Positions 4,366-59,700 of a stretch of DNA of 64,000 bases are shown here, one piece after another. The stretch comes from Mobula hypostoma (lineage: Eukaryota). The stretch covers positions 72,356,001 through 72,420,000 of the forward strand of contig NC_086108.1 in assembly GCF_963921235.1 (NCBI RefSeq), in the 5' to 3' direction. A model generated the notes under the pieces. It saw nothing but the letters and a program-made list of their open reading frames with translations. It was not told the origin of the DNA and made no database searches. The number at the start of each line of letters is the position of its first letter. The first letter of the stretch is position 1. A program made the position numbers and the translations under genes.

Positions 4366-5036
4366 CATTGTTGAGTGAAAGAGCTTCCTCGTCTGTCATT
4401 ATGGACCAAATGCTTGCCACAATATACTGTTTAAAAGGATAGGTCTGGCTCTCGATTTGAGATTATAATTTGGAGAAAGACCAATTTTGTTGGTATCAGA
4501 AAGGATCTGGAAAATGTGGATTGGGACAGGCTGTTTTCTAACAAAGGTGTATTTGGTAAGTGGGGGGACTTCAAAAATGAAATTTTGAAAGTACAGAGTT
4601 TGTATGTTCCTGTCAGCATAAAAGGCAAGGATAATCAGTTGATGAAACCTTGTTATCTGAGAGACATTGAGGCCCCACCTCCGAAAAAGAATGAGGTACA
4701 TAGCAGGTATAGGTAGGCAGGAACAATGAGGTACTTGAGGAGTATAAGAAATGTAAGGGAACACTTAAGCAGGAAATCAGGAGGAGAAAAGAAGACATGA
4801 GGTTGTTCTAGCAGACAAGGTGAAGGAGAATCCCAGGGGCCTCTACAGATATATTAAGGACAAAAGGATAGCAAGGGACAAAATTGGTCCTCTGGAAGGT
4901 CAGAGTGGCCATCTACACATGGAGCCAAAAGAAATGGTGGCGATCTTAAATAGATTGTTTGCATCTGTATTTACTCAGGAGACAGACACAGAGTCGAGAG
5001 ATGTGAGGCAAATTAGGGTGGATAAATTCCTCAGGT

Positions 5037-5567
5037 CTCACAAGGTATTCCCTTGGACCTTGTGGAAAGCAAGTGCAGATATTGCAGGGGCCCCAGCAGA
5101 GATATTAAAAACATCTTTAGCCATGGGTGAGGTGCCGGAGGATTGGAAGATAGGCAATGTTGTTCTGTTGTTTAAGAAGCCTATAAGAATAAGCCAGGAA
5201 ATTATAGACTGGTGAGCCATCAGTACTGGGAAAGTTTGGAAGGTATTCTAAGGAAGCGGGTTTTGATAGACAGGGACTGATTAGGGATAGTACCATGCAC
5301 AAAGCCATGTTGACTATCCCTAATCAGTCCCTGTCTATCAAAACCCGCTTCCTTAGAATACCTTCCAAACTTTCCCAGTACTGATGGCTCACCAGTCTAT
5401 AATTTCCTGGCTTATTCTTATAGGCTTCTTAAACAACAGAACAACATTGCCTATCTTCCAATCCTCCGGCACCTCACCCATGGCTAAAGATGTTTTTAAT
5501 ATCTCTGCTGGGGCCCCTGCAATATCTGCACTTGCTTTCCACAAGGTCCAAGGGAATACCTTGTGAG
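5037..5567. repeat. Long inverted repeat: 255-bp arms (5037-5291, 5313-5567), 21-nt spacer
   Basis: Arms are reverse complements with no mismatch noticed; the ORF track reports identical peptides on opposite strands (5038..5220 minus, 5384..5566 plus). Confidence 0.95.
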
Positions 5568-6117
5568 TCATGCCTAAGCAATCTTACAGAGTTCTTCAAG
5601 CAAGTTACCAGGAAGGTTGATGAATGCAAGGCAGTGAATGTCTTCATGGACTTTAGTAAAGCATTTGACAAGGTCCTGCTTGGGAGGTTAGACAAGAAGT
5701 TTCAGTGGCTTGGCATTCATGATAAAATAATACATTGGATTAGACATTGGGTTTGTAGAAGAAGCCAGAGAGCGGTTGAAGATGTTACCTCTCTGACTGG
5801 AGGCCTGTGACTGGTGATGTGCTGCAGGAATCAGTGCTGAGTTCATTGTTGTTTGTCATCTACATCAACTATGTGGTAAACTGGATCAGCAAGTTTGACG
5901 ATGACACCAAGATTGGAGGTGTAGTGGACAGCAAGGAAGACTATCAATGTATGCAACTGGATATGGATCAGCTGGACAATGGGCTGAAAAATGGCAGATG
6001 GAATTTAATTCAGACAAGTGTGAGGTGTTGGACTTCGGGAGGACCAATCTGCGTATATCTGCGTATGTAGGGCACTGAGGAGTGTGGTAGAACAAAGAGA
6101 TCTGGTAATAAAGAGAT

Positions 6118-15182: not shown

Positions 15183-15406
15183 TAAGGACATGTTATAAGG
15201 ACAAATGCCTTACAACTAATTGAATTCTGAATGGTTTTGTCAATTTTTATCTATCTTTTCAGGACGTTAGTCATTTTGATCTGGCAACTTGAATGATGGA
15301 TTTGGCCATGCATCTGGAATTTACACAGTTGGTTAGTAAATAGATGATGCATTTTTGTAGCTATTTAACTAGCTTTCATGAAAACATCGAAACTCATTTA
15401 ATTAAT

Positions 15407-15823
15407 AAAGACAAGAGGTCCTGCAGATGAGTAAATAGTCAACAGTTGGGGCCGAAACTCTTCATCGGGACTGGAAAGGAAAGGGTGGGGGGGGGGGGGA
15501 GGAGAGATGCCAGAATAAGAAGGCAGGGAGAGGGGGAAAGGGTAATCTAGAAGATGATAGCTGAAGCCAAGGTGAATGGGTGAGGGGGTTGAAGTAAGAA
15601 GCTGGGCAGTGATAAGTGGCAAATGTAAAGGGCTGGCAAAGAAGGGGTCTGATACCTATCACCTTCTTGCTTGTCCTCCTCCCCCTACCCCTACCTTCTG
15701 GCATCTTCCCCCTTTCTTTCCAGTCCTGACGGATGGTCTTGGCCCAAAATGTTAACTGCTTATTCATTTCCATAGATGCTGCCTGGCCTGTCGAGTTCCT
15801 CCAGCATTCTGTGTGTGTGTTGA
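15407..15823. mobile_element. PLE-derived fold-back mini-element (two opposed terminal fragments)
   Basis: Purine-rich half then pyrimidine-rich half, each with a degenerate hammerhead motif; 13-bp TSD TCATTTAATTAAT at 15394-15406 and 15824-15836. Confidence 0.75.
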
Positions 15824-15929
15824 TCATTTAATTAATGTTCATGAAAAAAATTGCTATAAAATATTAGTAGGTAGTTATTTTTAAAATTCAATATTGTAGC
15901 ACAGTTTGTCTATATGAGGTACCAGCAAG

Positions 15930-20525: not shown

Positions 20526-22144
20526 GGCAGGAACTGGATACTGATAGTGGATGATCAGCCATGATCACAGTGAATGGTGGTGCTGGCTTGAAGGGCCGAA
20601 TGGCCTACTCCTGCACCTACTGTCTATTGTCTTTTGGGTGTGGTCTTTCATTAATTCTATTGTGGTTCTTGGATTTACAGTATGCCCACAAGAAAACGAA
20701 TCTCGGGTTTGTATATGTACTTTGATAATAAATTTGCCTTGAATTTTGAATTAACTTCTAAACAATAATGTTTACTGACTAGATTTAATTAATTTAAATG
20801 TACCATTTTTGCATAGGAGCCATCCTGGATGATTTGCCATCATTTGGTCAGTGCAATTACCACTCAAAAACTGTTTAGCTGTAACCTTTTGAAGGAATGA
20901 TCAATTTAGCTGCATTGATCATTTGAAGACAGCCCTAACTAATGGCTGCAACTAAAATCCATTGTTCTTTACAACATATGTTATGTGCCAAGGAGTTGAG
21001 AAATAAATTATTTGCACTTTATATTGTTTTCACAAGGCAATTGACAGTCAATAAAATATTCATGAAGTTTGCTCACTGTTGTAATGAATGTAAACACAGA
21101 CTCAGGTCTCACCAACAGCAATAAAACAAAGGCTCCACATAGTGACACAGCAACTTCCAGCCAGAATTGGTATGATTGCGTAATCATGCTCACAACCCCA
21201 AATCTGCTGCTGGTATTGCTGTAAATCACCGATTTTATCCAACCACCCTCCACTCAATGTATTGCAACTGAAATCACAAAATAAAGAAACCGCAAGTGCT
21301 GGAAATCCCTCTCGGTAGAGTCAACATCTTTGTGAAGAGTTTTCGGATCAGAGAACCTTAGTCAGAACTAGCAAAACTAAGATGAAGTAAGGTATTTTTT
21401 AAGTTGCAGAAAAGCTACCAGTCAGAATGCACATAACAAAGGGAATATCCATAATCAGTGGAGACCAGGTAAAATGATTAATAATGCAATTAATAGAACA
21501 TAGAACATAGAATAGTACCGCACAGTACAGGGCCTTCAGCCCACAATGTTGTGCCGACCATCAAACCCTGCCTCCTATATAAACCCCCACTTTAAATTCC
21601 TCCATATACCTGTCTAGTAGTCTCTTAAACTTCACTAGTGTTTCTGCCTCCACCACTGACTCAGGCTGTGCATTCCACGCACCAACCACTCTCTGAGTAA
21701 AAAACCTCCCTGTAATATCCCCCTTGAAATTCCCACCCCTTACCTTAAAGCCATGTCCTCTTGTATTGAGCAGTGGTGCCCTGGGGAAGAGGCACTGGCT
21801 ATCCACTCTATCTACTCCTCTTATTATCTTATACATCTCCATCATGTCTCCTCTCATCCTCCTTCTCTCCAAAGAGTAAAGCCCTAGCTCCCTTAATCTC
21901 TGATCATAATGCATACTCTCTAAACCAGGCAGCATCCTGGTAAATCTCCTCTGTACCCTTTCCAATGCTTCCACATCCTTCCTATAGTGAGGTGACCAGA
22001 ACTGGACACAGTACTCCAAGTGTGGCCTAACCAGAGTTTTATAGAGCTGACAACAGGAATTCTGCAGATGCTGGAAATTCAAGCAACACACATCAAAGTT
22101 GCTGGTGAACGCAGCAGGCCAAGCAGCATCTGTAGGAAGAGGTG

Positions 22145-22182
22145 CAGTCAACGTTTCAGGCCGAGACCCTTCGTCAGGACTA
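22145..22182 (-). ncRNA. Minimal type I hammerhead ribozyme motif (intact core)
   Basis: Minus strand reads uaguc-CUGACGA-a-gggucucggccu-GAAAC-GUU-gacug: stem I, catalytic core, stem II and palindromic ACGU stem III. Confidence 0.75.
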
Positions 22183-22192
22183 ACCCTGACAT

Positions 22193-22230
22193 TAGTACTG
22201 ACGAAGGGTCTCGGCCTGAAACGTCGACTG
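22193..22230 (+). ncRNA. Minimal type I hammerhead ribozyme motif (GUC cleavage triplet)
   Basis: uagua-CUGACGA-a-gggucucggccu-GAAAC-GUC-gacug; one mismatch at the innermost stem I pair. Confidence 0.7.
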
Positions 22231-23867
22231 CACCTCTTCCTACAGATGCTGCTTGGCCTGCTGCGTTCACCAGCAACTTTGATGTGTGTTGCTTTTATAG
22301 AGCTGCATCGTTACATCGCGACTCTTAAACTCTATTCCTCGACTTATGAAAGCTAACACCCCATAAGCTTTCTTAACTACCCTATCTACCTATGAGGCAA
22401 CTTTCAGGGATCTGTGGACAGGTACCCCCAGATCCCTCTGCTCCTTCACACTACCAAGAATCCTGCCATTTACTTTGTACTCTGCCTTGGAGTTTGTCCT
22501 TCCAAAGTGTACCACCTCACACTTCTCCGGGTTGAACTCCATTTGCCACTCTCAGCCCACTTCTGCATCCTATCAATGTCTCTCTGCAATCTTTGACAAT
22601 CCTCTACACTATCCACAACACCACCAACCTTTGCATTGTCTGCAAACTTGCCAACCCACCCTTCTACCCCCACATCCAGGTCGTTAATAAAAATCACGAA
22701 AAGTAGAGGTCCCAGAACAGATCCTTGTAGGACACCACTAGTCACAATCCTCCAATCTGAATGTACTCCCTCCACCACCACCCTCTGCCTTCTGCAGGCA
22801 AGTCAATTCTGAATCCACCTGGCCAAACTTCCCTGGATCCCATGCCTTCTGACTTTCTGAATAAGGCTACCATGTGGAACCTTATCAAATGTCTTACTTA
22901 AATCTATATAGATCACATCCACTGCACTACCCTCATCTATATGCCTGGTCACCTCCTCAAAGAACTCTATCAGGCTTGTTAGACACGATCTGCCCTTCAC
23001 AAAGCCATGCTGGCTGTCCCTGATCAGACCATGACTCTCTAAATGCCCAGAGATCCTATCTCTAAGAATCTTTTCCAACAGCTTTCCCACCACAGATGTA
23101 AGGCTCACTGGTCTATAATTACCCGGACTATCCCTACTACCTTTTTTGAACAAGGGGACAACATTCACCTCCCTCCAATCCTCTGGTACCATTCCTGTGG
23201 ACAACGAGGACATAAAGATCCTAGCCAGAGGCTCAGCAATTTCTTCCCTCACCTCATGGAGCAGCCTGGGGAATATTCCATCAGGTCCCGGGGACTTATC
23301 CATCCTAATGTATTTTAACAACTCCAACACCTCCTCTCCCTTAATATCAACATGCTCCAGAACATCAACCTCAGTCATATTGTCCTCACCATCATCAAGT
23401 TCCCTCTCATTGGTGGATACCAAAGAGAAGTATTCATTGAGGACCTTGCTCACTTCCACAGCCTCCAGGCACATCTTCCCACCTTTATCTCTAATCGGTC
23501 CTACCTTCACTCCTGTCATCCTTTTTTTCTTCACATAATTGAAGAATGCCTTGGGGTTTTCCTTTACCCTACTCACCAAGGCCTTCTCATGCCCCCTTCT
23601 TGCTCTTCTCAGCCCCTTCTTAGTCTCCTTTCTTGCTTCCCTATATTCCTCAATAGACCCATCTGATCCTTGCTTCCTAAACCTCATGTATGCTGCCTTC
23701 TTCCACCTGACTAGATTTTCCACCTCACTTGTCACCCATGGTTCCTTCACCCTCCCATTCTTTATCCTCCTCACTGGGACAAATTTATCCCTAACATCCT
23801 GCAAGAGCTCTCTAAACATCGATCGGAGGAAAATTGTGCTCCCCTGATTCTCTGATGAGATCCATGG

Positions 23868-25160
23868 CATAAGGCCATAAGATATAGGAGCCAAATTAGG
23901 CTATTTGGCCCATTAAGTATACTCCACCATTTCATCATGGCTGATCTAATTTTTCTCTCAGCCTCAGTCTCTAGCATTCTCCCTATATCCCCTCATGCCC
24001 TGACTAATCAAGAATCTATCAACATTAAATATACATAAGGACTTGGCCTCTACTGCTGCCTGTGGAAAAGCATTCCACAGATTCACCACTCTCTGGTCAA
24101 AGAAATTCCTCCTCATCTCTGTTCTAAAAGGACGTCCCTCTATTCTGAGGCTGTGTGCTCTGGTCTTAGACACTCCCACCATAGGAAACATCCTCTTCAC
24201 ATCCACTCTGTTAAGGCCTTTCACCATTCGTTAGGTTTCAGTGAGGTCTCATTCTTCTGAATTCTAGTGAACGCAGGCCCAGAGCCATCAAACACTCTTT
24301 ATATGACAAGCCATTCAATCCTGGAATCATTTTCATAAACTTCCTTTGAACCTCTCCAAGTTCAACTCATTCTTTCTAAGATAAGGGCCCAGAACTGCTT
24401 ACAATACTCTCAAAGAGGCCTCACCAGGGCTTTATAAAATCTCAAAATTATAGTCTTGCTTTTATATCCTAGTCCTCTTGAAATGAAGGCTAACATCACG
24501 TTTGACTTCCTCACCACAGACTTAACTTGCAAATTAACCTTTAGGGAATCCTGCACAAAGACTCCCAAATTCCATTGTACCTCATTTTTTTTTTGTATTT
24601 TCTCTTCATTCAGAAAATTTCTGCTACCAAAGTGCATGAGCATACCTTACCTGACATTGTATCCCATCTACCATTTCTTTGCCCTATTTTACTAATCTAA
24701 GTCCTCCTCTAGCCTCTCTACATCTTCAAAACTACCTGCCCCTCCACCTATCTTCATATCCTCTGCAAACTTTTCAACAAAGCCATCAATTCCATCATCG
24801 AAATCATTGACATATAACATAAAAAGAATCGGTTCCAACACAGACCCCTGTGGAACACCACTGGTCACTGGCAGCCAGTCAGAAAAGGCTCTCTTTATTC
24901 ACAATCTTTGCCTCCTGCCAATCAGCCACTTTTTATCCATGCTAGAATCTTTCCAGTAATACCATAGCTTGTTAAGCAGCCTCATGCGTGGCACCATGTC
25001 AAAGGCCTTCTGAAATTCCAAGTACACAACATCAGCAGATTCTCCTTTGTCTATCCAGATTGTTATCTCTTCAAAGAATTCCAATAGAATTGTCAGGCAA
25101 GATTTTCCCTTGAGGAAACCATGCTGACTACTGCTTATTTTATCATGTGCCTCCAAGTAC
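23868..25160 (-). mobile_element. CR1 LINE 3' part
   Basis: QHGFLKGKSCLTILLEFFEE and RNFFDQRVVNLWN fragments; CATAAGGCCATAAGATA tail. Confidence 0.88.
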
Positions 25161-29869: not shown

Positions 29870-31235
29870 AACGAGAGAAAATCTGCAAATGCTGGAAATC
29901 CAAGCAACATACACAAAATGCAGGAGGAACTCAGCAGGCCAGGCAGCATCTCTGGAAAACAGTACAGTCAATGTTTCGGGCCGAGACCCTTCATCAGGAC
30001 TGGAGAAAAAAAGATGAGGAGTCAGAGTAAGAAAGTGGAGACAGCTTAACTACTGACGTCTATTATAAACCCATTGACTCTCACAGCTACCTGGACTATA
30101 CCTCTTCCCACCCTGTTACTTGTAAAAATTTCATCTGCTTCTCTCAATTCCTCCATCTCTGCTGCATCAGCTTCAAAGACAGGGTGACAGGGGCTTCTCT
30201 TCCTCCATCATCAACAATGCGCTCACCCGCATCTTTTCCATTTCACACGCACTTACACTCACCCCGTCCTCCTGCCGCTGTACCAGGGATAGGGTTCCTC
30301 TTGTTCTCACTGACCAGCCTCCATGTCCAGCACACAATTTTCTGTAGCTTCCTCCATCTCCAATGGGATCCCACCACCAAGCACATCTTTCCCTGCCCCC
30401 CCCCACTTCCTGTCTATTCGTCCCTCCCCACTGATCTCCCTCCTGGCACTTATCCTTGCAAGTGGAACAAGTGCTAAACCTGCCCCTACACCTCCTTCCT
30501 CACTACTATCCAGGGCCCCAAGCAGTCTTTGCAGGTGAAGCAACACTTCACCTGTGAGTCTGTCGGGGTCATCTACTGTATCTGGTGCTCCCGATGTGGC
30601 ATCCTGTATATCGGTGAGACCCAACGTAGTTTGGGAGACCGCTTTGCCGAGCACCTACGCTGCATCTGCCAGAAAAAACAGGAACTCCCGGTGGCCATCC
30701 ATTTTAATTCCATTTCTCATTCCCATTCTAATATGTCAGTACATGGCCTCCTCTACTGTCGCGATGAGGCGACATTCAGGTTGGAGGAGCAACATCTTAT
30801 GTTCTGTTTGGGTAGCCCCAACTTGATGGCATGAACACCGATTTCTCAAACTTCTGGTAATTGCCCCAACCCCCTTCACCATCTCCTATTCCCATTTCCC
30901 TCTCTCACTCTTATCACCTTACATGCCCAGCACCTCTCTCTGGTGCTCCTCCCTCTTTTCTTTCTTCCATGGCCTTCTATCCTCTCCTATCTGATTTCCA
31001 CTCCTCCAGCCCTGTATCTCTTTCATCAATCAAATTCCCAGATCTTTACCTCATCCCTCCCAATCCAGGTTCACCTATCACCCTGTGTTTTTTCCTCCCC
31101 CCCCCCACCTTCTTACACTGCCTCCTCCCATCTTAGTTTCTCCAATCCTAATAAAGCAGCTTGAAATGTTGACTACTCTTTTTCATAGATGCTGCCTAGC
31201 CTGCTGAGTTCCTCCAGCATTTTGTGTGTGTTGCT
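29870..31235 (+). mobile_element. Penelope-like element (probably Neptune clade), 5'-truncated, with inverted terminal repeat at its 5' end
   Basis: RT thumb remnant TDVYYKP.DSHSYLDYTSSHP; Cys linker GTYPCKWNKC*TCP; GIY-YIG endonuclease VIYCIWCSRCGILYIGET...RFAEH. Terminal repeat inverted at ~29870-30040 and direct at ~31135-31235. Confidence 0.88.
29965..30002 (-). ncRNA. Minimal hammerhead ribozyme motif in the inverted PLE terminal repeat
   Basis: caguc-CUGAUGA-a-gggucucggccc-GAAAC-AUU-gacug; perfect stem I, stem II with one U-G pair; stem III ACGU changed to ACAU, consistent with CpG decay. Confidence 0.7.
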
Positions 31236-39560: not shown

Positions 39561-39920
39561 TATCAGCTACTTTCTCCAGATAAAATATACGCAATGCTGG
39601 AGGCACTCAGCAAATGCTGACTTCCTCCAGCATTTTGTGTGTGTTGCTCGGATGTCCAGCATCCGCCGATTTTCTCTTGTTTGTGATCGGATTACTTTCT
39701 CCAGGTGCTGTCTTATACTACTGAAGTCAGACAAGACGAACTTACGGAAAATGTTTATGTCCATACACAACACTTGCAGGGGTTTTAGCAACCTTATCCT
39801 TTTCCATGACTACCATAAATCATTCTGAATTGTCATTTTTCACCTAGGGTTCCTCCACAGACTCTTCCATTCTCTATTCCCTTTTGTCCTCAACCCCTTC
39901 ACTAAAGGGAAACACCTACC

Positions 39921-47750: not shown

Positions 47751-49149
47751 GAGGCAATTGGCTCTAATTGTGTTATTTTGTGGCCAGGGCATCCTTAGCA
47801 TTTCAGGTTGTATATTCTATACATCCTCGGATATTAAATGGATCTATTGAATGTCTTAGTATAAATGCCAAATGCAAGAGATTCTGCAGATGTTGGAAAT
47901 GCAGGGCAACACACACAAACTGCTGGAGGAACTCAGCCACTAAGGCAGCATCCATGGAGAGGAATAATCAGCAGATGTTTTGAGTTAAGATCCTTCATCA
48001 ATATAAATGCCACCCTTATTGATATGCTGGAACAGAATGGCTAGAGGTGTCCCATACTTTGAACATGAATTCAACAGGACAAACAAGGTATTGTTGGGTC
48101 CCATAGCCTTTGGTGCATCCATTACACTCAGTATTTCTTAAAGTGATACAGTATTGGAAACAATCAGATTCCCTGAGACTGGATTAAATGATACGGAGGA
48201 AGGTCATGCAGAATCTGAATTGAATCAATAGCCCAGATAGGCCAGACTGGATAAACTCTGCACACTTCCCTTCCTAGAAGGCATCCCTCAACCTAATAGG
48301 TTTCATGATTTGGCTACCATTACTGGATCTCTATTTTATATAATTTAAAAATTGTTAATTGAGTGGAAATTCCTCGGCTGCTGTGACAGGATCTGAATCA
48401 GTCTTTCCAATTCACCTGACCAGACCTCTGGATTCCTCATCATCTTGACGCCATCTCACTCAATGGCATTATATTTTAATGCAATAAACAAAAAAATACA
48501 GATGCTGGAAACCTGAAGTAAAATCAGAAAATGCTGAAAATACTCACTAGATCAGCCCAGAGCTGTGGGAGAGAAGCAGCGCTAATATTTCAAGTAGATG
48601 ACTCTTAGTCAAAAGGGAAACTTGACCCAAAACGTTAATACGAGGAAATCTGCAGATGCCGGAATTTCAAGCAACTTTTATGTGTGTTGCCCGAAACGTT
48701 AATAACTGTTTCTCATCCCACAGACGTGGCTTGACCTGCTGAGTATCTCCAGCCTTTTCTTCCGTATAGTAGATCCTTAATTGGTAACGGTACGATTTGT
48801 TAATGGTATTAGATTAAATTCAACTTTATTGTCATTGTGCCGAGTACAGATACAAAACCGATGAAATGCAGTTAGCATATACAACTATTCATGTATTTTC
48901 CGAAACACCTACATTACAAATTGTCAGGCTTTTTACAATGATAATCTTGCTGGAGTACAAGTTTACTGCAGTCCTTCTCCAAGTCCGCGGCTCAGCGTGC
49001 TTTAATGCAACACGTAGCGACTCCAACCCAGTTCGTGAACCGAGTCCGGGTCCTGCTCCGTCCCAGCGAGGTATCAGCGCATCTGCACAGATTCTGCAGT
49101 GCAATGACCGACTTCCACTCGCAATTTATCACTGACAGTGGGTGTGGTT

Positions 49150-54214: not shown

Positions 54215-54485
54215 ATTTATTTATTGAGTGATGCACCGGTGAACAGGTCCTCCCTGACCACTGAGCTGTGCTGCCTAGCATGCCACCTGTTTAACCCTAG
54301 CCTGATCACAGGACAATTTACAATGACCAATTAATCTACCGACTGGTACATCCTTGGCATTTTGGAGGAAACCCACATGCACACAGGAAGAATTTCTTAC
54401 AGAGGATGACAGAATTGAACTCCAAACTCTGACACCCTGAGCCGTAATAACGTTGCAATGACCACAATACCACCACAGCTCTACA
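54215..54485 (-). mobile_element. tRNA-derived V-SINE (HE1-like), degraded
   Basis: Reverse-complement homology to 55385-55662 (GGACAATTTA, GACCAATTAA, GGAAACCCAC; ATTTATTTATT tail). Confidence 0.6.
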
Positions 54486-55384: not shown

Positions 55385-55662
55385 CATGGGGTGGCATGAT
55401 AGCATAATGCTTTACAGTGGCAGTGACCTGGGTTCAATTCTCACTGCTGCCTGTAAGGAGTTTGTACTTCCTCCCTGTGACTGTGTGGGTTTCCTGCTGG
55501 TGCTCCGGTTTCTTCCCACAGTCCAAAGACCTACCAATTAGTAGGTTAATTGGTCTTAGTAAATTGTCCTGTGATTAGGTTAGGATTAAATTGGGGGTTG
55601 CTGGTGGCTTGGCTTGAAGGGTCAGAAAGGCCTATTCCATGTGTTGTATCTCAATAAATAAA
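55385..55662 (+). mobile_element. tRNA-derived V-SINE (HE1-like)
   Basis: B-box-like GGGTTCAATTC; V-domain GGGTTTCC...GGTGCTCCGGTTTCTTCCCACAGTCCAAAGAC; AATAAATAAA tail. Confidence 0.75.
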
Positions 55663-56578
55663 TTAGCTTGCTGACACAAGTATATGCATCAAATGCTTTT
55701 TCTGGTAAATTTAAAGGTAGACTTTATAATCAACTAAAGTACTGCCAAGTGTTTAGTTCCTTTCAACTAAGTCAGCATCGACAATATGTTCCGTAGAGGA
55801 AAGAGGGGCATGAATGAACTAATATAGGGGAAGAACCATATGGTATTAACTGAATTGGTGGAGGTAAAAGTAAACAGGTTGAATTAACACAGAGGTAGAA
55901 GAGTTCTTGTATAAACTGTGAAGGTGGGAGTAGTGTTACAGTGAAAATGTGAGGGTTTGAAGGAGATACTAGCCTCCTTTTCTCTCAGGTGCTTTTGGAA
56001 CTAGAGTGTTGAAGACAAAATCAGGATAGAGAAAGTTAACCACTGAACTTGTTGACATTCCAAATGTATTTTAATCTTTTTTAAAAAAACTATTAGTCAT
56101 AATATAAACAAACGCTGAGAAGTTCCTAGATATGCTATTTTTATTAACTTCGGACCTTCAATTATTTTATTAACCCTTCAGAGTTTTGGAATATTTATGA
56201 TGATGCAAGTGAAGAAATTTATGTATATCTATATACAAAATTATGTATAGGTACTTGTCTTTAATGTAAGAGCTGTCTTTAAACTGTTGGCTGCTTGATT
56301 GCCCTAACAGTTTCACTTGCAGAAGATATGAAATTGGCCCTTGTTCATTTTTCTGGATTGCAGCTCCTAACAGTTGACTTTTGAGGATGTGGAAAGATCT
56401 ATGCAAGTAGTTTTTATGGAAGAGGAGCAACAAAAGAAACATCTCTTCTTTCTCATTTATTCTACACTTGTTTGCAAAATGACGTCGGAATGTTTTTGAA
56501 AGATCGTATATGTGTCGGAATTCAAGATTGTTTATTGTCATTCTTCAGTAAACGAGTGTAGAGGAGAATGAAATGATT

Positions 56579-56758
56579 GTTGCCACACACACAAAATACT
56601 GGAGGAACTCAGCAGGCCAGGCAGCATCTATGGAAAAAAGTACAGTTGACGTTTTGGGCCGAAACCCTTCAGCAGGACCAGTAAAAAAAGATGAGCTCTT
56701 CCAGTATTTTGTGTGTATTGCTTGGATTTCCAGCATCTGCAGATTTTCTCTTGTTTGT
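56579..56758. mobile_element. PLE-derived fold-back mini-element
   Basis: Opposed terminal-repeat pieces; 13-bp TSD GAATGAAATGATT at 56566-56578 and 56759-56771. Confidence 0.78.
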
Positions 56759-59700
56759 GAATGAAATGATTTTTACTCTGGATCAGATACAGCATTTTTA
56801 AAAAAAAAAGCACCTTATCAGAACAAGGCAGCAATTATTCAAATTCTAAATGTCTTTTTCTTATTGGAAAGACATTGCTATCATCTTGCATTAACAAATG
56901 ATGGGCGTCAGCCTCAGATAATTATTTTTGTATTAAACAGCAACAGATTGGCAACATTCTGTGCCTTTTATTGATTTTGTTTCTGCATGTAAGTAGTTTG
57001 ACTAAGAATGGATATATTTTGCATTTTTGATTTAATGAGTAATATCTTCCTTTTGAAATGCTTTCATGCTGACATTGAAATCGGAACATTTTGTGGCAAA
57101 GATCAGAGATGTCTTTGATTTGCCTAATTACATTTTCGAAAGAAACATTTATGAAGATTTTGTGAAACTTAATCCCAGCTATTTAACCAAGTAATGTAAA
57201 GAAGCTTGCTCCAGTAACATCAAGAGTTTAATGTTACATTTTAAATCATGGAAGATGTTGAAATAATTTAAGATCTCCTAAATCAGTGAACTGTTTTACA
57301 ATCTTGAACAGTTTAGTTCAAGAACTCCATTTTAGGTGAAAATCAGTGCTGTATTTGGTTGAAGATATTTATTTTATCTCTTCATACTGTTGGCAGTAAG
57401 CTTGCAAATCTGAAATTCGTAATGCAGTGTTCAGTTTTTGTTTTGAAGGTGTATAATGTAGAAAATTATGTATCGGAGCTTAAAATATTTACTTGCTGCT
57501 GCTTCAGTAGGAATGCACTTGTATTTTTCTGTACTTTATCTACCTTCGTATAATATGGCTTGTCTTGGGGAAGTGCATACAAAGATGATAATCGTCTAGT
57601 CATATTGGACACAGTTTGACAATGAGATTAACAATTGGATCGTAATTTCCTCACTTTCAAATATGTTTATTAGAATCATTCTCGTCATAATTTTTCTGTT
57701 GCTTTAAGTTGTTACTAAATGGAATATTTTTCTTTGATTACATATTTTCTGTGCTAGTTATGCTAGTTAACTGTCAAATGACTGATGTTGTAGATCTCAT
57801 CTAAGTGATCCTAGAGCCACCTCTGCAGCCAGATTCAAGCTCCACAGTCTTGCTGCATGCAGTCTTGAATGGTGGTGGATAAATGGCTAATGAGTGGAGA
57901 TGGCTGTATGGTAGGACAGGCTGTCCCTGGGAAAGGAATTGGTTTTGTTTTCACTGATGTCCATAAGTTAGTTATTTTCCATGTTTCAGAAAATTCACTG
58001 GATGTGGTAAATGTACCTCTCCAGTATTGTAATGAACAGCATCAAATGCATGTAAGACTCGTCAGAAGTAACAATGATCAAAATTGGAAAGAGAGAGGAA
58101 ACTAGTTCTGCCATTTGTAGGAACAAATATATGCATGTTGGATTTTAATGTTATGGGAGCTTGTTTGTATTTAGGAGTCATGAGCTCATAATGTAGGGGG
58201 CAGTCTATTTTGCCCAGAAGTGTGTGCAGAAGGCAAGTGTAGTGTATTTGAAAACATTTCAGCAAATATTATAGGATCACAAAGACACCCTGTTTGTAGT
58301 GCTGAAGACTCGTGCAACCAAACTGTTTCACCATACCCATAGCGTGGTATTGAGCCAATAATGAGAAATATTATCAAAGTACGTTTGAGCCACCAAGTTA
58401 GGACCAATTTATTCCAGATAAACTATCTGGGGGTTTTATTCACATCTAAAAACTATTGACTTCATTTCAGTTTGGACTTTGGGCCATAAAAATTCAAGAG
58501 AGGACAATGTAGTCCTGACAAAGTGGAAAAGGTGTGTTGTACATTTGCTAAGTCACCAAAGGCAACATATCCAGATCAAATGAAGGAAGCATTTAGTATT
58601 TAGTGGATGCTGAATTATTTTCCCCTGTACTTAATTCTTCATATAAGCACTTACCTTGCTTTTCTTTTTTGGATAATAGCTTGAATACAAGTAGAGGGAA
58701 TATAATTATCATCGTCTACTGAAAATAAATACCTCCAAATCTTAAGTAACACACCAGAAAATGCTGGAGGAACTCAGCAGGTCAGGCAGCATCTATAGAA
58801 ATAAATAAAGTTGTGTTTTGGGCTGACGCCCTTCAACAAGACTGAAAAGGACAGGCGAAGACCTTCAAATCTTGTTATTATGCTTGACTCTCAATTTAAA
58901 ACTACTTGGCCATGTGCAGTGAAGTATTTTGTGCTGATAATACATTACACTCAGAGTGTTTGGTCAGTGCTCTTTCTGCCTAACTTAAATTGAAGTTTTG
59001 CTTCTATTTCATGTCAATATTACAACAAATGCTGTAAATATTGGATAACTTTAAAGTCATAATTTAAACAATACTTGCAAATGTTATCTTCTCAAGTCTT
59101 ACCGTCATGCTCTGCATTACAATCTGAAGCCTGTGGATAGATTACAAGTTTATTTTTATAGCCAGTCATACATATTTGCACTTTGTCTATGCTCTATATC
59201 AGAACCAAGTCTGAATAAGATTTTTTATCAGTGGGAAGCTGGTTTCTGCAGCAAGCTATGGCACCTGTGAAAGATTTCTGGTGAAAGGCATCTGGCTCAA
59301 ATATATTTGACAAAAAAATCCTGAACTTCACATTAGAAATCGCCAATTATTGGTTTACTAATTTTCTACTAATAGTGTATGCTGGAGTCTTTCTGGTAGT
59401 GGAATTTGACAGCTCTTTATTGCAATATAATTCAAAGATTCAAGCAGAACTATCATGCCAGAAATGTTAGAAAGACTGTTCCTCAATAATTTTATGGATA
59501 TTTACATTTTAGTTCTTTCAAGAGTGCCAAAGCTTAATTTTTCATAGAATGCGAACAGCATATGATCCAGTCCCTGAGCAATTTTAGTGAGCTCTCTTTG
59601 AATGGAGTATTCTTTTTGAATAACTCTAATGCAAACAGAAGTTGAGGGGAAAAATGCACGAGTTTCATATGTTTGTGAGTCAGTGATTACATTCATTATA

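What the first reader, a model, noticed from the sequence alone, without database searches (positions are those of the whole stretch)
22037..22305. Young 243-bp palindromic mini-element with two opposed ribozymes and an exact 13-bp TSD
Seen: 103-bp arms with 2 mismatches and an 8-nt loop, built only from PLE terminal-repeat sequence, with CpGs retained and a perfect TSD inside a CR1 RT. It looks like a MITE but is retroelement-derived. A transcript of either strand would contain one hammerhead plus its antisense copy, forming a ~100-bp dsRNA hairpin that competes with ribozyme folding. Inference: it is either a non-autonomous PLE-mobilised ribozyme element or the extreme truncation product of the PLE 'inverted repeat + 3' end' integration reaction.
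Basis: partly seen in the sequence, partly recalled or inferred. Interest (0 to 1): 0.75.

Follow-up and report, generated by a model that had tools for sequence, protein, structure and literature searches.

The report
Tiny palindromic Penelope retroelement insertion
This 243-base hairpin-shaped insert is a stump of a Penelope-like jumping gene, two short end-copies joined head to head, likely made anew in one insertion event rather than spreading as its own ribozyme element, and the arrangement is already known for this class.

Summary
Observation confirmed, with one omission. The insert is not symmetric: a 31-nt 'tail' (22050-22080) sits on one end only. Tail arm + inverted tail-less arm + TSD is the published insertion anatomy of endonuclease-bearing Penelope-like elements (PLEs). 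The 64-kb window holds 8 such inverted insertions (49 bp to 1.4 kb), with 8 different centres; one carries a GIY-YIG gene piece. Contigs of four public runs gave 14 distinct arm-to-arm joints among the rows shown. Best reading: both 3' ends of a 13-nt staggered cut primed reverse transcription at the element's two start sites, and the two short cDNAs were end-joined with a 7-nt filler. Both hammerheads are minimal motifs on opposite strands; each has one change that likely weakens it, and each is predicted to be buried in the hairpin (57-67 kcal/mol). Not settled: the copy number of this exact centre; some other centres look multi-copy. One lead: 13 of 14 joints have an arm ending at the hammerhead's 5' edge. 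This scan noted the same anatomy before, in another genome and elsewhere in this one. Known kind, clean example; interest 0.3.

The parts
22037..22049 (.). Left copy of the 13-bp target-site duplication
   Evidence: single copy in paralogous empty sites (tables 5, 7)
22050..22080 (-). 31-nt PLE 'tail', the 3' extension found at this end only
   Evidence: unpaired; 156/131 contigs in runs X1/X5 end at 22050 with other flanks (table 7); same extension in 4 other tail arms
22081..22184 (-). Tail-side arm: 3' part of the PLE pseudo-LTR, 5'-truncated 7 nt upstream of hammerhead C3
   Evidence: family sequence continues differently after 22184 (tables 5c, 7)
22146..22181 (-). Minimal hammerhead motif 1; cleavage triplet GUU instead of GUC (CpG-type change at 22150); G10.1-U11.1 wobble
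   Evidence: pattern scan
22185..22191 (.). 7-nt filler at the central junction; 6 nt are the reverse complement of 22173-22178 (possible templated insertion)
   Evidence: chance of such a local 6-mer match is about 6% (hand estimate), so suggestive only
22192..22294 (+). Tail-less arm: inverted pLTR copy starting 6 nt upstream of C3; ends at the internal 3' boundary and shares 2 nt with the TSD
   Evidence: 6 other tail-less arms in the window end at the same motif
22194..22229 (+). Minimal hammerhead motif 2; GUC triplet intact, but the helix I closing pair is broken by A at 22197 (C in the other arm and in 8 of the 10 other aligned copies)
22293..22305 (.). Right copy of the 13-bp target-site duplication
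21493..23900 (-). Host: decayed CR1-type LINE ORF2 (RT core upstream of the site, C-terminal part and 3' microsatellite downstream); interrupted by the insert
   Evidence: Pfam RVT_1 E=9e-15; frames; the CR1 label is recalled from motif likeness, not from a call

Best explanation
The insert is a head-to-head pair of 5'-truncated Penelope-like (PLE) end copies, one with the 31-nt tail and one without, between a 13-bp duplication, and it was likely made in a single insertion reaction in which both nicked target strands primed reverse transcription. Shown: the anatomy, the PLE origin, two discrete 3' ends 31 nt apart, and varied centres among sister insertions. Inferred: an autonomous PLE RT-endonuclease cut the host LINE with a 13-nt stagger. 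The top-strand 3'-OH was extended from the tail start site and the bottom-strand 3'-OH from the internal start site, where a 2-nt primer match is possible. Both cDNAs stopped just past the hammerhead, and end-joining with a 7-nt filler sealed them. The product is probably a dead-on-arrival passenger. Any read-through RNA would form a ~100-bp hairpin in which the antisense copy is made first, so the hammerhead is predicted not to fold.
For: Tail on one side only. Eight inverted insertions in the window, with 8 different centres and arm lengths. TSDs of 12-15 bp are clear in 5 of the 8 (the 15.4-kb one read). The 29.9-31.2-kb copy has the same layout with a GIY-YIG piece (E=1.2e-4, above cut-off) and 108/130 identity to this arm. 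14 distinct arm-to-arm joints in the rows shown (listed). In two of them (22070, 22073) one arm is shorter than the tail while the other is about 90 nt, which one self-copied cDNA cannot give. The tail-less arm is the longer one in 4 of the 8 window copies (29.9/31.2, 40.3, 48.6, 56.6 kb). 5 of 9 table-5 joints have 3-nt microhomology against 2-6% expected. The 48.6-kb micro-copy is joined at a 6-nt overlap. PMC11167929: a purified PLE protein cleaves and extends both strands and starts RT at two sites that bound the tail. PMC8557442 and PMC3846280 describe the inverted 5'-truncated copy, one-sided 30-40-bp tail and TSDs. The hammerhead fold costs 57 and 67 kcal/mol, and the core is paired with P>0.99.
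Against: The copy number of this exact centre was not readable: no listed piece spans the loop. Some other joints stand at depths of 36-174 in run X1 (unique flank 9-22) and 92-420 in X5 (flank 56), and 3 joints occur in two runs, so some centres may be multi-copy (the tool warns that depth is no copy number). The two arms end within 1 nt of each other, as do those of the 39.6-kb copy (31-nt arms, 2-nt loop); independent truncation explains this only if there is a shared stop site. One X16 contig shows a tail-less end at this same host site in a flank differing at several letters. Only the best-supported rows were shown (626 joints hidden), so the joint sample is biased. The two-ended joining step was not shown in the papers I read.
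Confidence: 0.72

Rival explanations
1. One-off PLE insertion, but the mirror arm was made by fold-back: a single cDNA primed at the tail snapped back near the hammerhead and copied itself, and the endonuclease resolved the intermediate at the tail boundary.
For: Arms here end within 1 nt of each other, and the filler can pair with 22173-22178. The 39.6-kb copy is also symmetric. PMC3846280 proposes self-priming for PLE inverted junctions, and PMC8557442 ascribes the tail to endonuclease resolution.
Against: It predicts that the tail arm is never the shorter one, yet it is shorter in 4 of 8 window copies and in joints 22070/22073. The final junction has no pairing that would prime the right arm.
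Confidence: 0.12
2. A self-propagating non-autonomous family: the whole palindrome is transcribed and re-inserted by PLE proteins, keeping one centre.
For: Some joints look multi-copy and 3 occur in two runs. Non-autonomous PLE derivatives exist (Chlamys MRC1 in PMC8557442; retrozymes in bioRxiv 2026.07.22.740005). The minus-strand transcript would end in the tail.
Against: 8 of 8 window centres differ, and 14 joints are all different. The 13-nt TSD occurs only here in the window. The internal start site would be locked in a -210 kcal/mol hairpin. Recurrent joints can arise from microhomology plus a shared stop site.
Confidence: 0.08
3. The centre is shared only because the insert travelled as a passenger in a duplicated or retrotransposed host LINE copy.
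For: An X16 contig (110 nt, depth 28) runs from the tail-less arm through the TSD into the host LINE with 6 other letters (table 8, record 23).
Against: That contig differs from the window more than the two arms differ from each other (6/110 against 2/103), which fits an independent insertion at a favoured site better. The host ORF here has several stops.
Confidence: 0.04
4. A MITE / DNA transposon with long terminal inverted repeats.
For: Small, TSD-flanked, nearly all inverted repeat.
Against: The left terminus is not part of the inverted repeat. The arms are the 3' end of a GIY-YIG retroelement. TSDs vary from 11 to 15 bp among sister copies. Tail-only and tail-less-only copies with TSDs exist (47.9 kb, 58.7 kb).
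Confidence: 0.02
5. Assembly or library fold-back artefact.
For: Long perfect hairpins can be artefacts; no listed contig piece spans the loop.
Against: The arms differ at 2 sites, the ends fall at the family's two natural 3' boundaries, an exact TSD flanks the insert, and older decayed copies have the same layout.
Confidence: 0.02

Closest known systems
EN+ Penelope-like element insertions with inverted pLTR and tail (PMC3846280; PMC8557442 Fig. 2 legend)
   Same: Inverted 5'-truncated copy head-to-head with the 3' pLTR; 30-40-bp tail at one end (31 bp in A. vaga Pen2a, 31 nt here); TSD (8-10 bp there); hammerhead in the pLTR.
   Different: Here both copies are cut down to about 100 nt, so nothing but the inverted pair is left; the TSD is 13 bp. 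Genome-wide abundance looks very high.
PAc (Poseidon of Anolis) in vitro reaction (PMC11167929)
   Same: Two RT start sites bounding the tail; both target strands cleaved and extended; uncleaved RNA is the template (both arms here run through the cut site and include the whole motif); AT-rich target.
   Different: In the main text I read, the paper does not propose joining the two cDNAs into an inverted insert. The sister ORF here has a CX4CxxC linker, i.e. Neptune/Nematis type, not Poseidon.
Minimal hammerheads (min-HHR) of metazoan PLEs (PMC4209133)
   Same: No helix III, palindromic 15.2-16.2 core, extra base after A9, 4-5-bp helix I. The paper also reports dual min-HHRs 100-700 bp apart on opposite strands.
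   Different: The two motifs here are only 12 nt apart, have G10.1-U11.1 instead of G-C, and each has one further change.
Non-LTR retrozymes (bioRxiv 10.64898/2026.07.22.740005)
   Same: Non-coding, PLE-pLTR-derived, carry a type I hammerhead.
   Different: Retrozymes are direct tandem repeats with same-strand hammerheads; this insert is inverted, single, TSD-flanked and cannot release a monomer circle.
L1 twin priming (recalled, not read; search listing only)
   Same: Both target nicks prime cDNA; an inverted 5' part is joined at microhomology.
   Different: Twin priming inverts a non-overlapping upstream segment of one RNA. Here both arms copy the same 3' region from two start sites, which gives a palindrome.

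Membership tests
Truncated inverted insertion of an EN+ PLE | Sequence is the terminal repeat of an element with a C-terminal GIY-YIG endonuclease | tested here: met
   Sister copy 29871-31235: 108/130 identity to this arm; GIY-YIG hit in 30478-30831; 4 homologues at 73-81%. The sister is an older subfamily.
Truncated inverted insertion of an EN+ PLE | Inverted 5'-truncated copy adjacent, head to head | tested here: met
Truncated inverted insertion of an EN+ PLE | 30-40-bp tail at one end only | tested here: met
   31 nt, 22050-22080
Truncated inverted insertion of an EN+ PLE | Target-site duplication of variable length | tested here: met
   13 bp here; 11-15 bp in sister copies; null maximum score 9 in 300 trials
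Truncated inverted insertion of an EN+ PLE | Hammerhead motif in the pLTR | tested here: met
   pattern scan; no Rfam hammerhead match
Autonomous PLE | Own RT-EN reading frame | tested here: not met
   243-bp insert made only of end sequence
Neptune/Nematis clade | CX2-5CxxC linker before GIY-YIG | tested here: inconclusive
   A CX4CxxC-like motif is visible in the older sister copy (definition in PMC8557442). No ORF of this exact subfamily was obtained and no tree was built.
Active minimal hammerhead | Intact core boxes CUGANGA / GAAA and NUH triplet | tested here: met
   both arms; triplets GUC and GUU
Active minimal hammerhead | Same-strand partner for the dimer fold, and an accessible core | tested here: not met
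   The partner is antisense; core paired with P>0.99; fold penalty 57/67 kcal/mol (prediction)
Active minimal hammerhead | Self-cleavage | not testable with these tools
   needs an in vitro transcription assay
Non-LTR retrozyme | At least two consecutive direct tandem units, each with a type I HHR | tested here: not met
   no direct repeat of the unit in 21500-22900; definition
Non-LTR retrozyme | Circular RNA | not testable with these tools
   the runs laid were contigs only
MITE | Inverted repeats forming both termini | tested here: not met
   left 31-33 nt unpaired
MITE | Uniform length and fixed short TSD across copies (definition recalled) | tested here: not met
   49 bp to 1.4 kb, TSD 11-15 bp
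MITE | Partner transposase with matching termini | not tested
   no whole genome held
Self-propagating palindromic PLE family | Same central junction at several loci with different TSDs | tested here: inconclusive
   0 of 7 other inverted window copies share it; the exact centre was not resolved in contigs; other centres may be multi-copy

The most novel reading that the evidence does not exclude
These rays make a short (~135-nt) PLE end RNA whose 5' end lies at the outer edge of the hammerhead's helix I. A dimeric RT-endonuclease loads two such RNAs, copies one from each start site onto each nicked strand, and so writes a fresh ~100-bp hairpin at many insertions. The genome would then hold a very large fossil record of PLE two-ended priming, and a dispersed source of family-specific dsRNA that could silence the parent element.
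Probability: 0.25. Interest if true: 0.6.

Novelty: new member of a known kind. Interest (0 to 1): 0.3.

Why it matters
As a single locus it is an inert retroelement scrap. Its value is mechanistic. How PLEs make their inverted structures is called undefined in PMC8557442, and PMC3846280 proposed self-priming. Young micro-insertions like this one fit whole within one read, and they keep the TSD, both start sites and the junction. Thousands of them could separate two-ended priming from fold-back and show whether templates begin at the hammerhead edge. If transcribed, they would be ready-made dsRNA triggers against the family; that was not tested.

Tried and rejected
No whole genome is held for this window, so no direct copy census was possible. 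Rfam: 0 matches at gathering threshold in the 64 kb; 8 sub-threshold matches around the locus, 7 to miRNA-hairpin models, none to hammerheads; rejected as hairpin-driven. Pattern scans: 0 hits in viral contigs, 0 in metagenome contigs, 1 in a second metagenome scan. That hit (L001) matches only the 22-nt pattern in unrelated sequence and was rejected as chance. Scan look-up by sequence: nothing. A telomere-like 8-mer at 22180-22187 was rejected: 5 of its letters are family sequence. TSDs at 29.9, 35.8, 40.3 and 8.3 kb do not exceed the null and are not counted. In one search the self-alignment missed the arms of the 49-bp copy; they were mapped. Two 'go-back' joints table 5c (22184>22153, 22181>22071) were left out of the joint count as ambiguous, and the host-LINE joints were left out as irrelevant. 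Expression: run X16 is only guessed to be RNA and is held as contigs, so nothing is claimed about transcription, editing, small RNA or circles. An orthologous empty allele could not be told from paralogous empty sites. Literature searches returned no listing on palindromic PLE micro-insertions in cartilaginous fish or on a two-cDNA joining model. The library lacks most subscription papers, and I opened no supplements (Fig. S2 of PMC11167929 and the supplements of PMC4209133 may bear on this).

Full report
Observation. The coordinates hold. An exact 13-bp direct repeat (22037-22049, 22293-22305) flanks 243 bp that contain 103-nt inverted arms, 8 nt apart, with two mismatches. The hairpin is far beyond chance (z = -27). 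The TSD score exceeds all 300 random trials. The host is a decayed LINE on the minus strand: RVT_1 hits upstream of the site, the frame reads on across the empty site, and contigs of paralogous copies show the uninterrupted site in three runs (66, 60, 59 contigs). The CR1 label is recalled from motif likeness.

What it is. The arms are the 3' end of a Penelope-like element. A sister insertion at 29871-31235 has the same layout, with a tail arm on one strand and an inverted tail-less arm on the other. Its long arm carries an RT-thumb/linker/GIY-YIG gene piece, and its end is 108/130 identical to this arm. The four homologues returned are annotated from rays, so the host is likely a ray. In a 12-arm alignment, the five tail arms run about 31 nt beyond the point where all seven tail-less arms stop, so the family has two discrete 3' ends. 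Contigs agree: 156 (X1) and 131 (X5) end at 22050 with other flanks, and 4 (X16) end at 22293.

Sister insertions. The window holds 8 inverted insertions: this one, 15.4-15.8, 29.9-31.2, 35.8-36.9, 39.6, 40.3-40.5, 48.6 and 56.6-56.8 kb. All 8 centres differ. Lengths run from 49 bp to 1.4 kb. Clear TSDs of 12-15 bp bound 5 of the 8; the other 3 do not beat the null. The 49-bp copy resembles the same subfamily; it is a tail plus 6 nt joined at a 6-nt overlap to a 20-nt inverted arm, and it sits inside another PLE end. Non-inverted copies with TSDs also occur: tail only at 47.9 kb and tail-less only at 58.7 kb. Most of these sisters are older subfamilies, so they show that the anatomy is generic, not that this centre is unique.

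Genome-wide view. I laid 4 of the 24 listed runs, all as contigs. Table 5 showed 15 joints (626 hidden), of which 9 join arm to arm. Table 5c showed 12 (356 hidden), of which 6 do, one shared with table 5. That gives 14 distinct centres; 2 ambiguous 'go-back' joints were dropped. Five of the 9 have 3-nt microhomology, against 2-6% expected. Against a strict 'all unique' reading, 3 joints occur in two runs and several stand at depths above the unique flank (X1 36-174 against 9-22; X5 92-420 against 56), although the tool warns that depth is no copy number. No listed piece spans this element's own loop, so its multiplicity is unknown. Loose ends show the family continuing with other letters after 22184, so 22185-22191 is a filler; 6 of its 7 letters mirror 22173-22178, which is suggestive only. 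One X16 contig carries a tail-less end at this same host site with 6 other letters in 110; I read it as a probable independent insertion at a favoured site, untested. Summed depth over the arm bins is far lower in X10 than in X1 and X5 (about 0.1 million against 2-13 million, with host-LINE depth within about threefold), which fits a lineage-restricted young subfamily.

Hammerheads. Each arm holds a minimal type I motif of the kind described in PMC4209133 (parts 1-2 of 4 read). That paper found such motifs inactive as monomers and weak as dimers, and noted pairs 100-700 bp apart on opposite strands. Both arm mismatches lie in the motif: GUC to GUU on the tail arm, and a broken helix I closing pair on the other arm. 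With two events this cannot show selection. In either transcript the antisense copy comes first. Forcing the hammerhead fold costs 57 or 67 kcal/mol, and the core is paired with P>0.99. Both arms include the whole motif, so the templates were uncleaved RNA, as in vitro.

Mechanism. PMC11167929 (parts 1-2 of 4 and passages read) shows a PLE protein cleaving and extending both target strands and starting at two sites that bound the tail; the protein is predicted to be a dimer. Applied here (inference), a 13-nt staggered cut leaves two 3' overhangs. One primes at the tail site and the other at the internal site, where two target A's could pair with two template U's. The two cDNAs stop near the hammerhead and are end-joined. 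This gives a TSD, a one-sided tail, head-to-head arms of independent length, and microhomology or filler at the centre, all of which are seen. Fold-back of a single cDNA (self-priming proposed in PMC3846280, passages read) fits the symmetry of this copy and of the 39.6-kb copy, but not the four window copies in which the tail arm is the shorter one.

A lead. Both arms here stop 6-7 nt upstream of C3. Earlier notes of this scan reported such clustering, so I counted: 13 of 14 joints have one arm ending between -6 and +11 (null 0.33 per joint; P = 6e-6), and 5 of the 6 with known fillers do (P = 0.018). The first figure is inflated, because my reference ends at -6 and alignments clip at its private letters, and only top rows were shown. 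It suggests an RT stop or a template start at the hammerhead's outer edge.

Comparison and novelty. The inverted 5'-truncated copy, the one-sided tail and the TSD are the described PLE insertion structure (PMC8557442, passages read; PMC3846280). It fails the tests for a MITE and for a tandem retrozyme (bioRxiv 2026.07.22.740005, part 1 of 5 and passages read). Six searches listed no paper on such micro-palindromes in cartilaginous fish or on the explicit two-cDNA joining model; the library is incomplete and supplements were not opened. This scan has noted the same anatomy before; those notes are leads, not support.

Verdict: a real, young, extreme example of a known PLE integration product, probably inert, and useful as a test object for the PLE mechanism. 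New member of a known kind; interest 0.3.

Noticed in passing
window 5032-5572: A 260-bp inverted duplication (2 mismatches) inside an old LINE RT: forward to 5291, an inverted copy of 281 bp including the 21-nt 'spacer', then the LINE resumes forward at about 5570. It looks like a recent template-switch duplication-inversion, unrelated to the PLE.
   Followed up: partly
window 48626-48704: A 49-bp PLE micro-insertion (tail + 6-nt overlap + 20-nt inverted arm, 15-bp TSD with 1 mismatch) inserted into the hammerhead region of an older PLE end.
   Followed up: yes
window 39568-39704 and 56566-56771: Older palindromic PLE minis with exact 12-13-bp TSDs: 31-nt arms with a 2-nt loop; and arms of about 110 nt against 30 nt.
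   Followed up: yes
window 15394-15836: Inverted PLE insertion with an exact 13-bp TSD; the tail-side arm has an internal deletion between the tail and the hammerhead.
   Followed up: partly
run X16, record 23, laid on window 22267-22376: A contig joins a tail-less PLE end to the same host-LINE site but with 6 other letters: possibly a second insertion at the same site in a paralogous LINE copy.
   Followed up: no
window 21948, 22370, 22431 (joints to 22050): Tail ends of this family are joined to other positions of paralogous LINE copies, so the family is not specific for one LINE site.
   Followed up: no
window 54283-54373 and 55507-55597: 91-nt inverted pair, 78% complementary and 1.1 kb apart, of a different repeat (SINE-like by eye); not examined further.
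   Followed up: no
window 29966-30001: A third minimal hammerhead motif with a full 4-bp helix I and a G-C closing pair in helix II, in the older PLE copy.
   Followed up: partly
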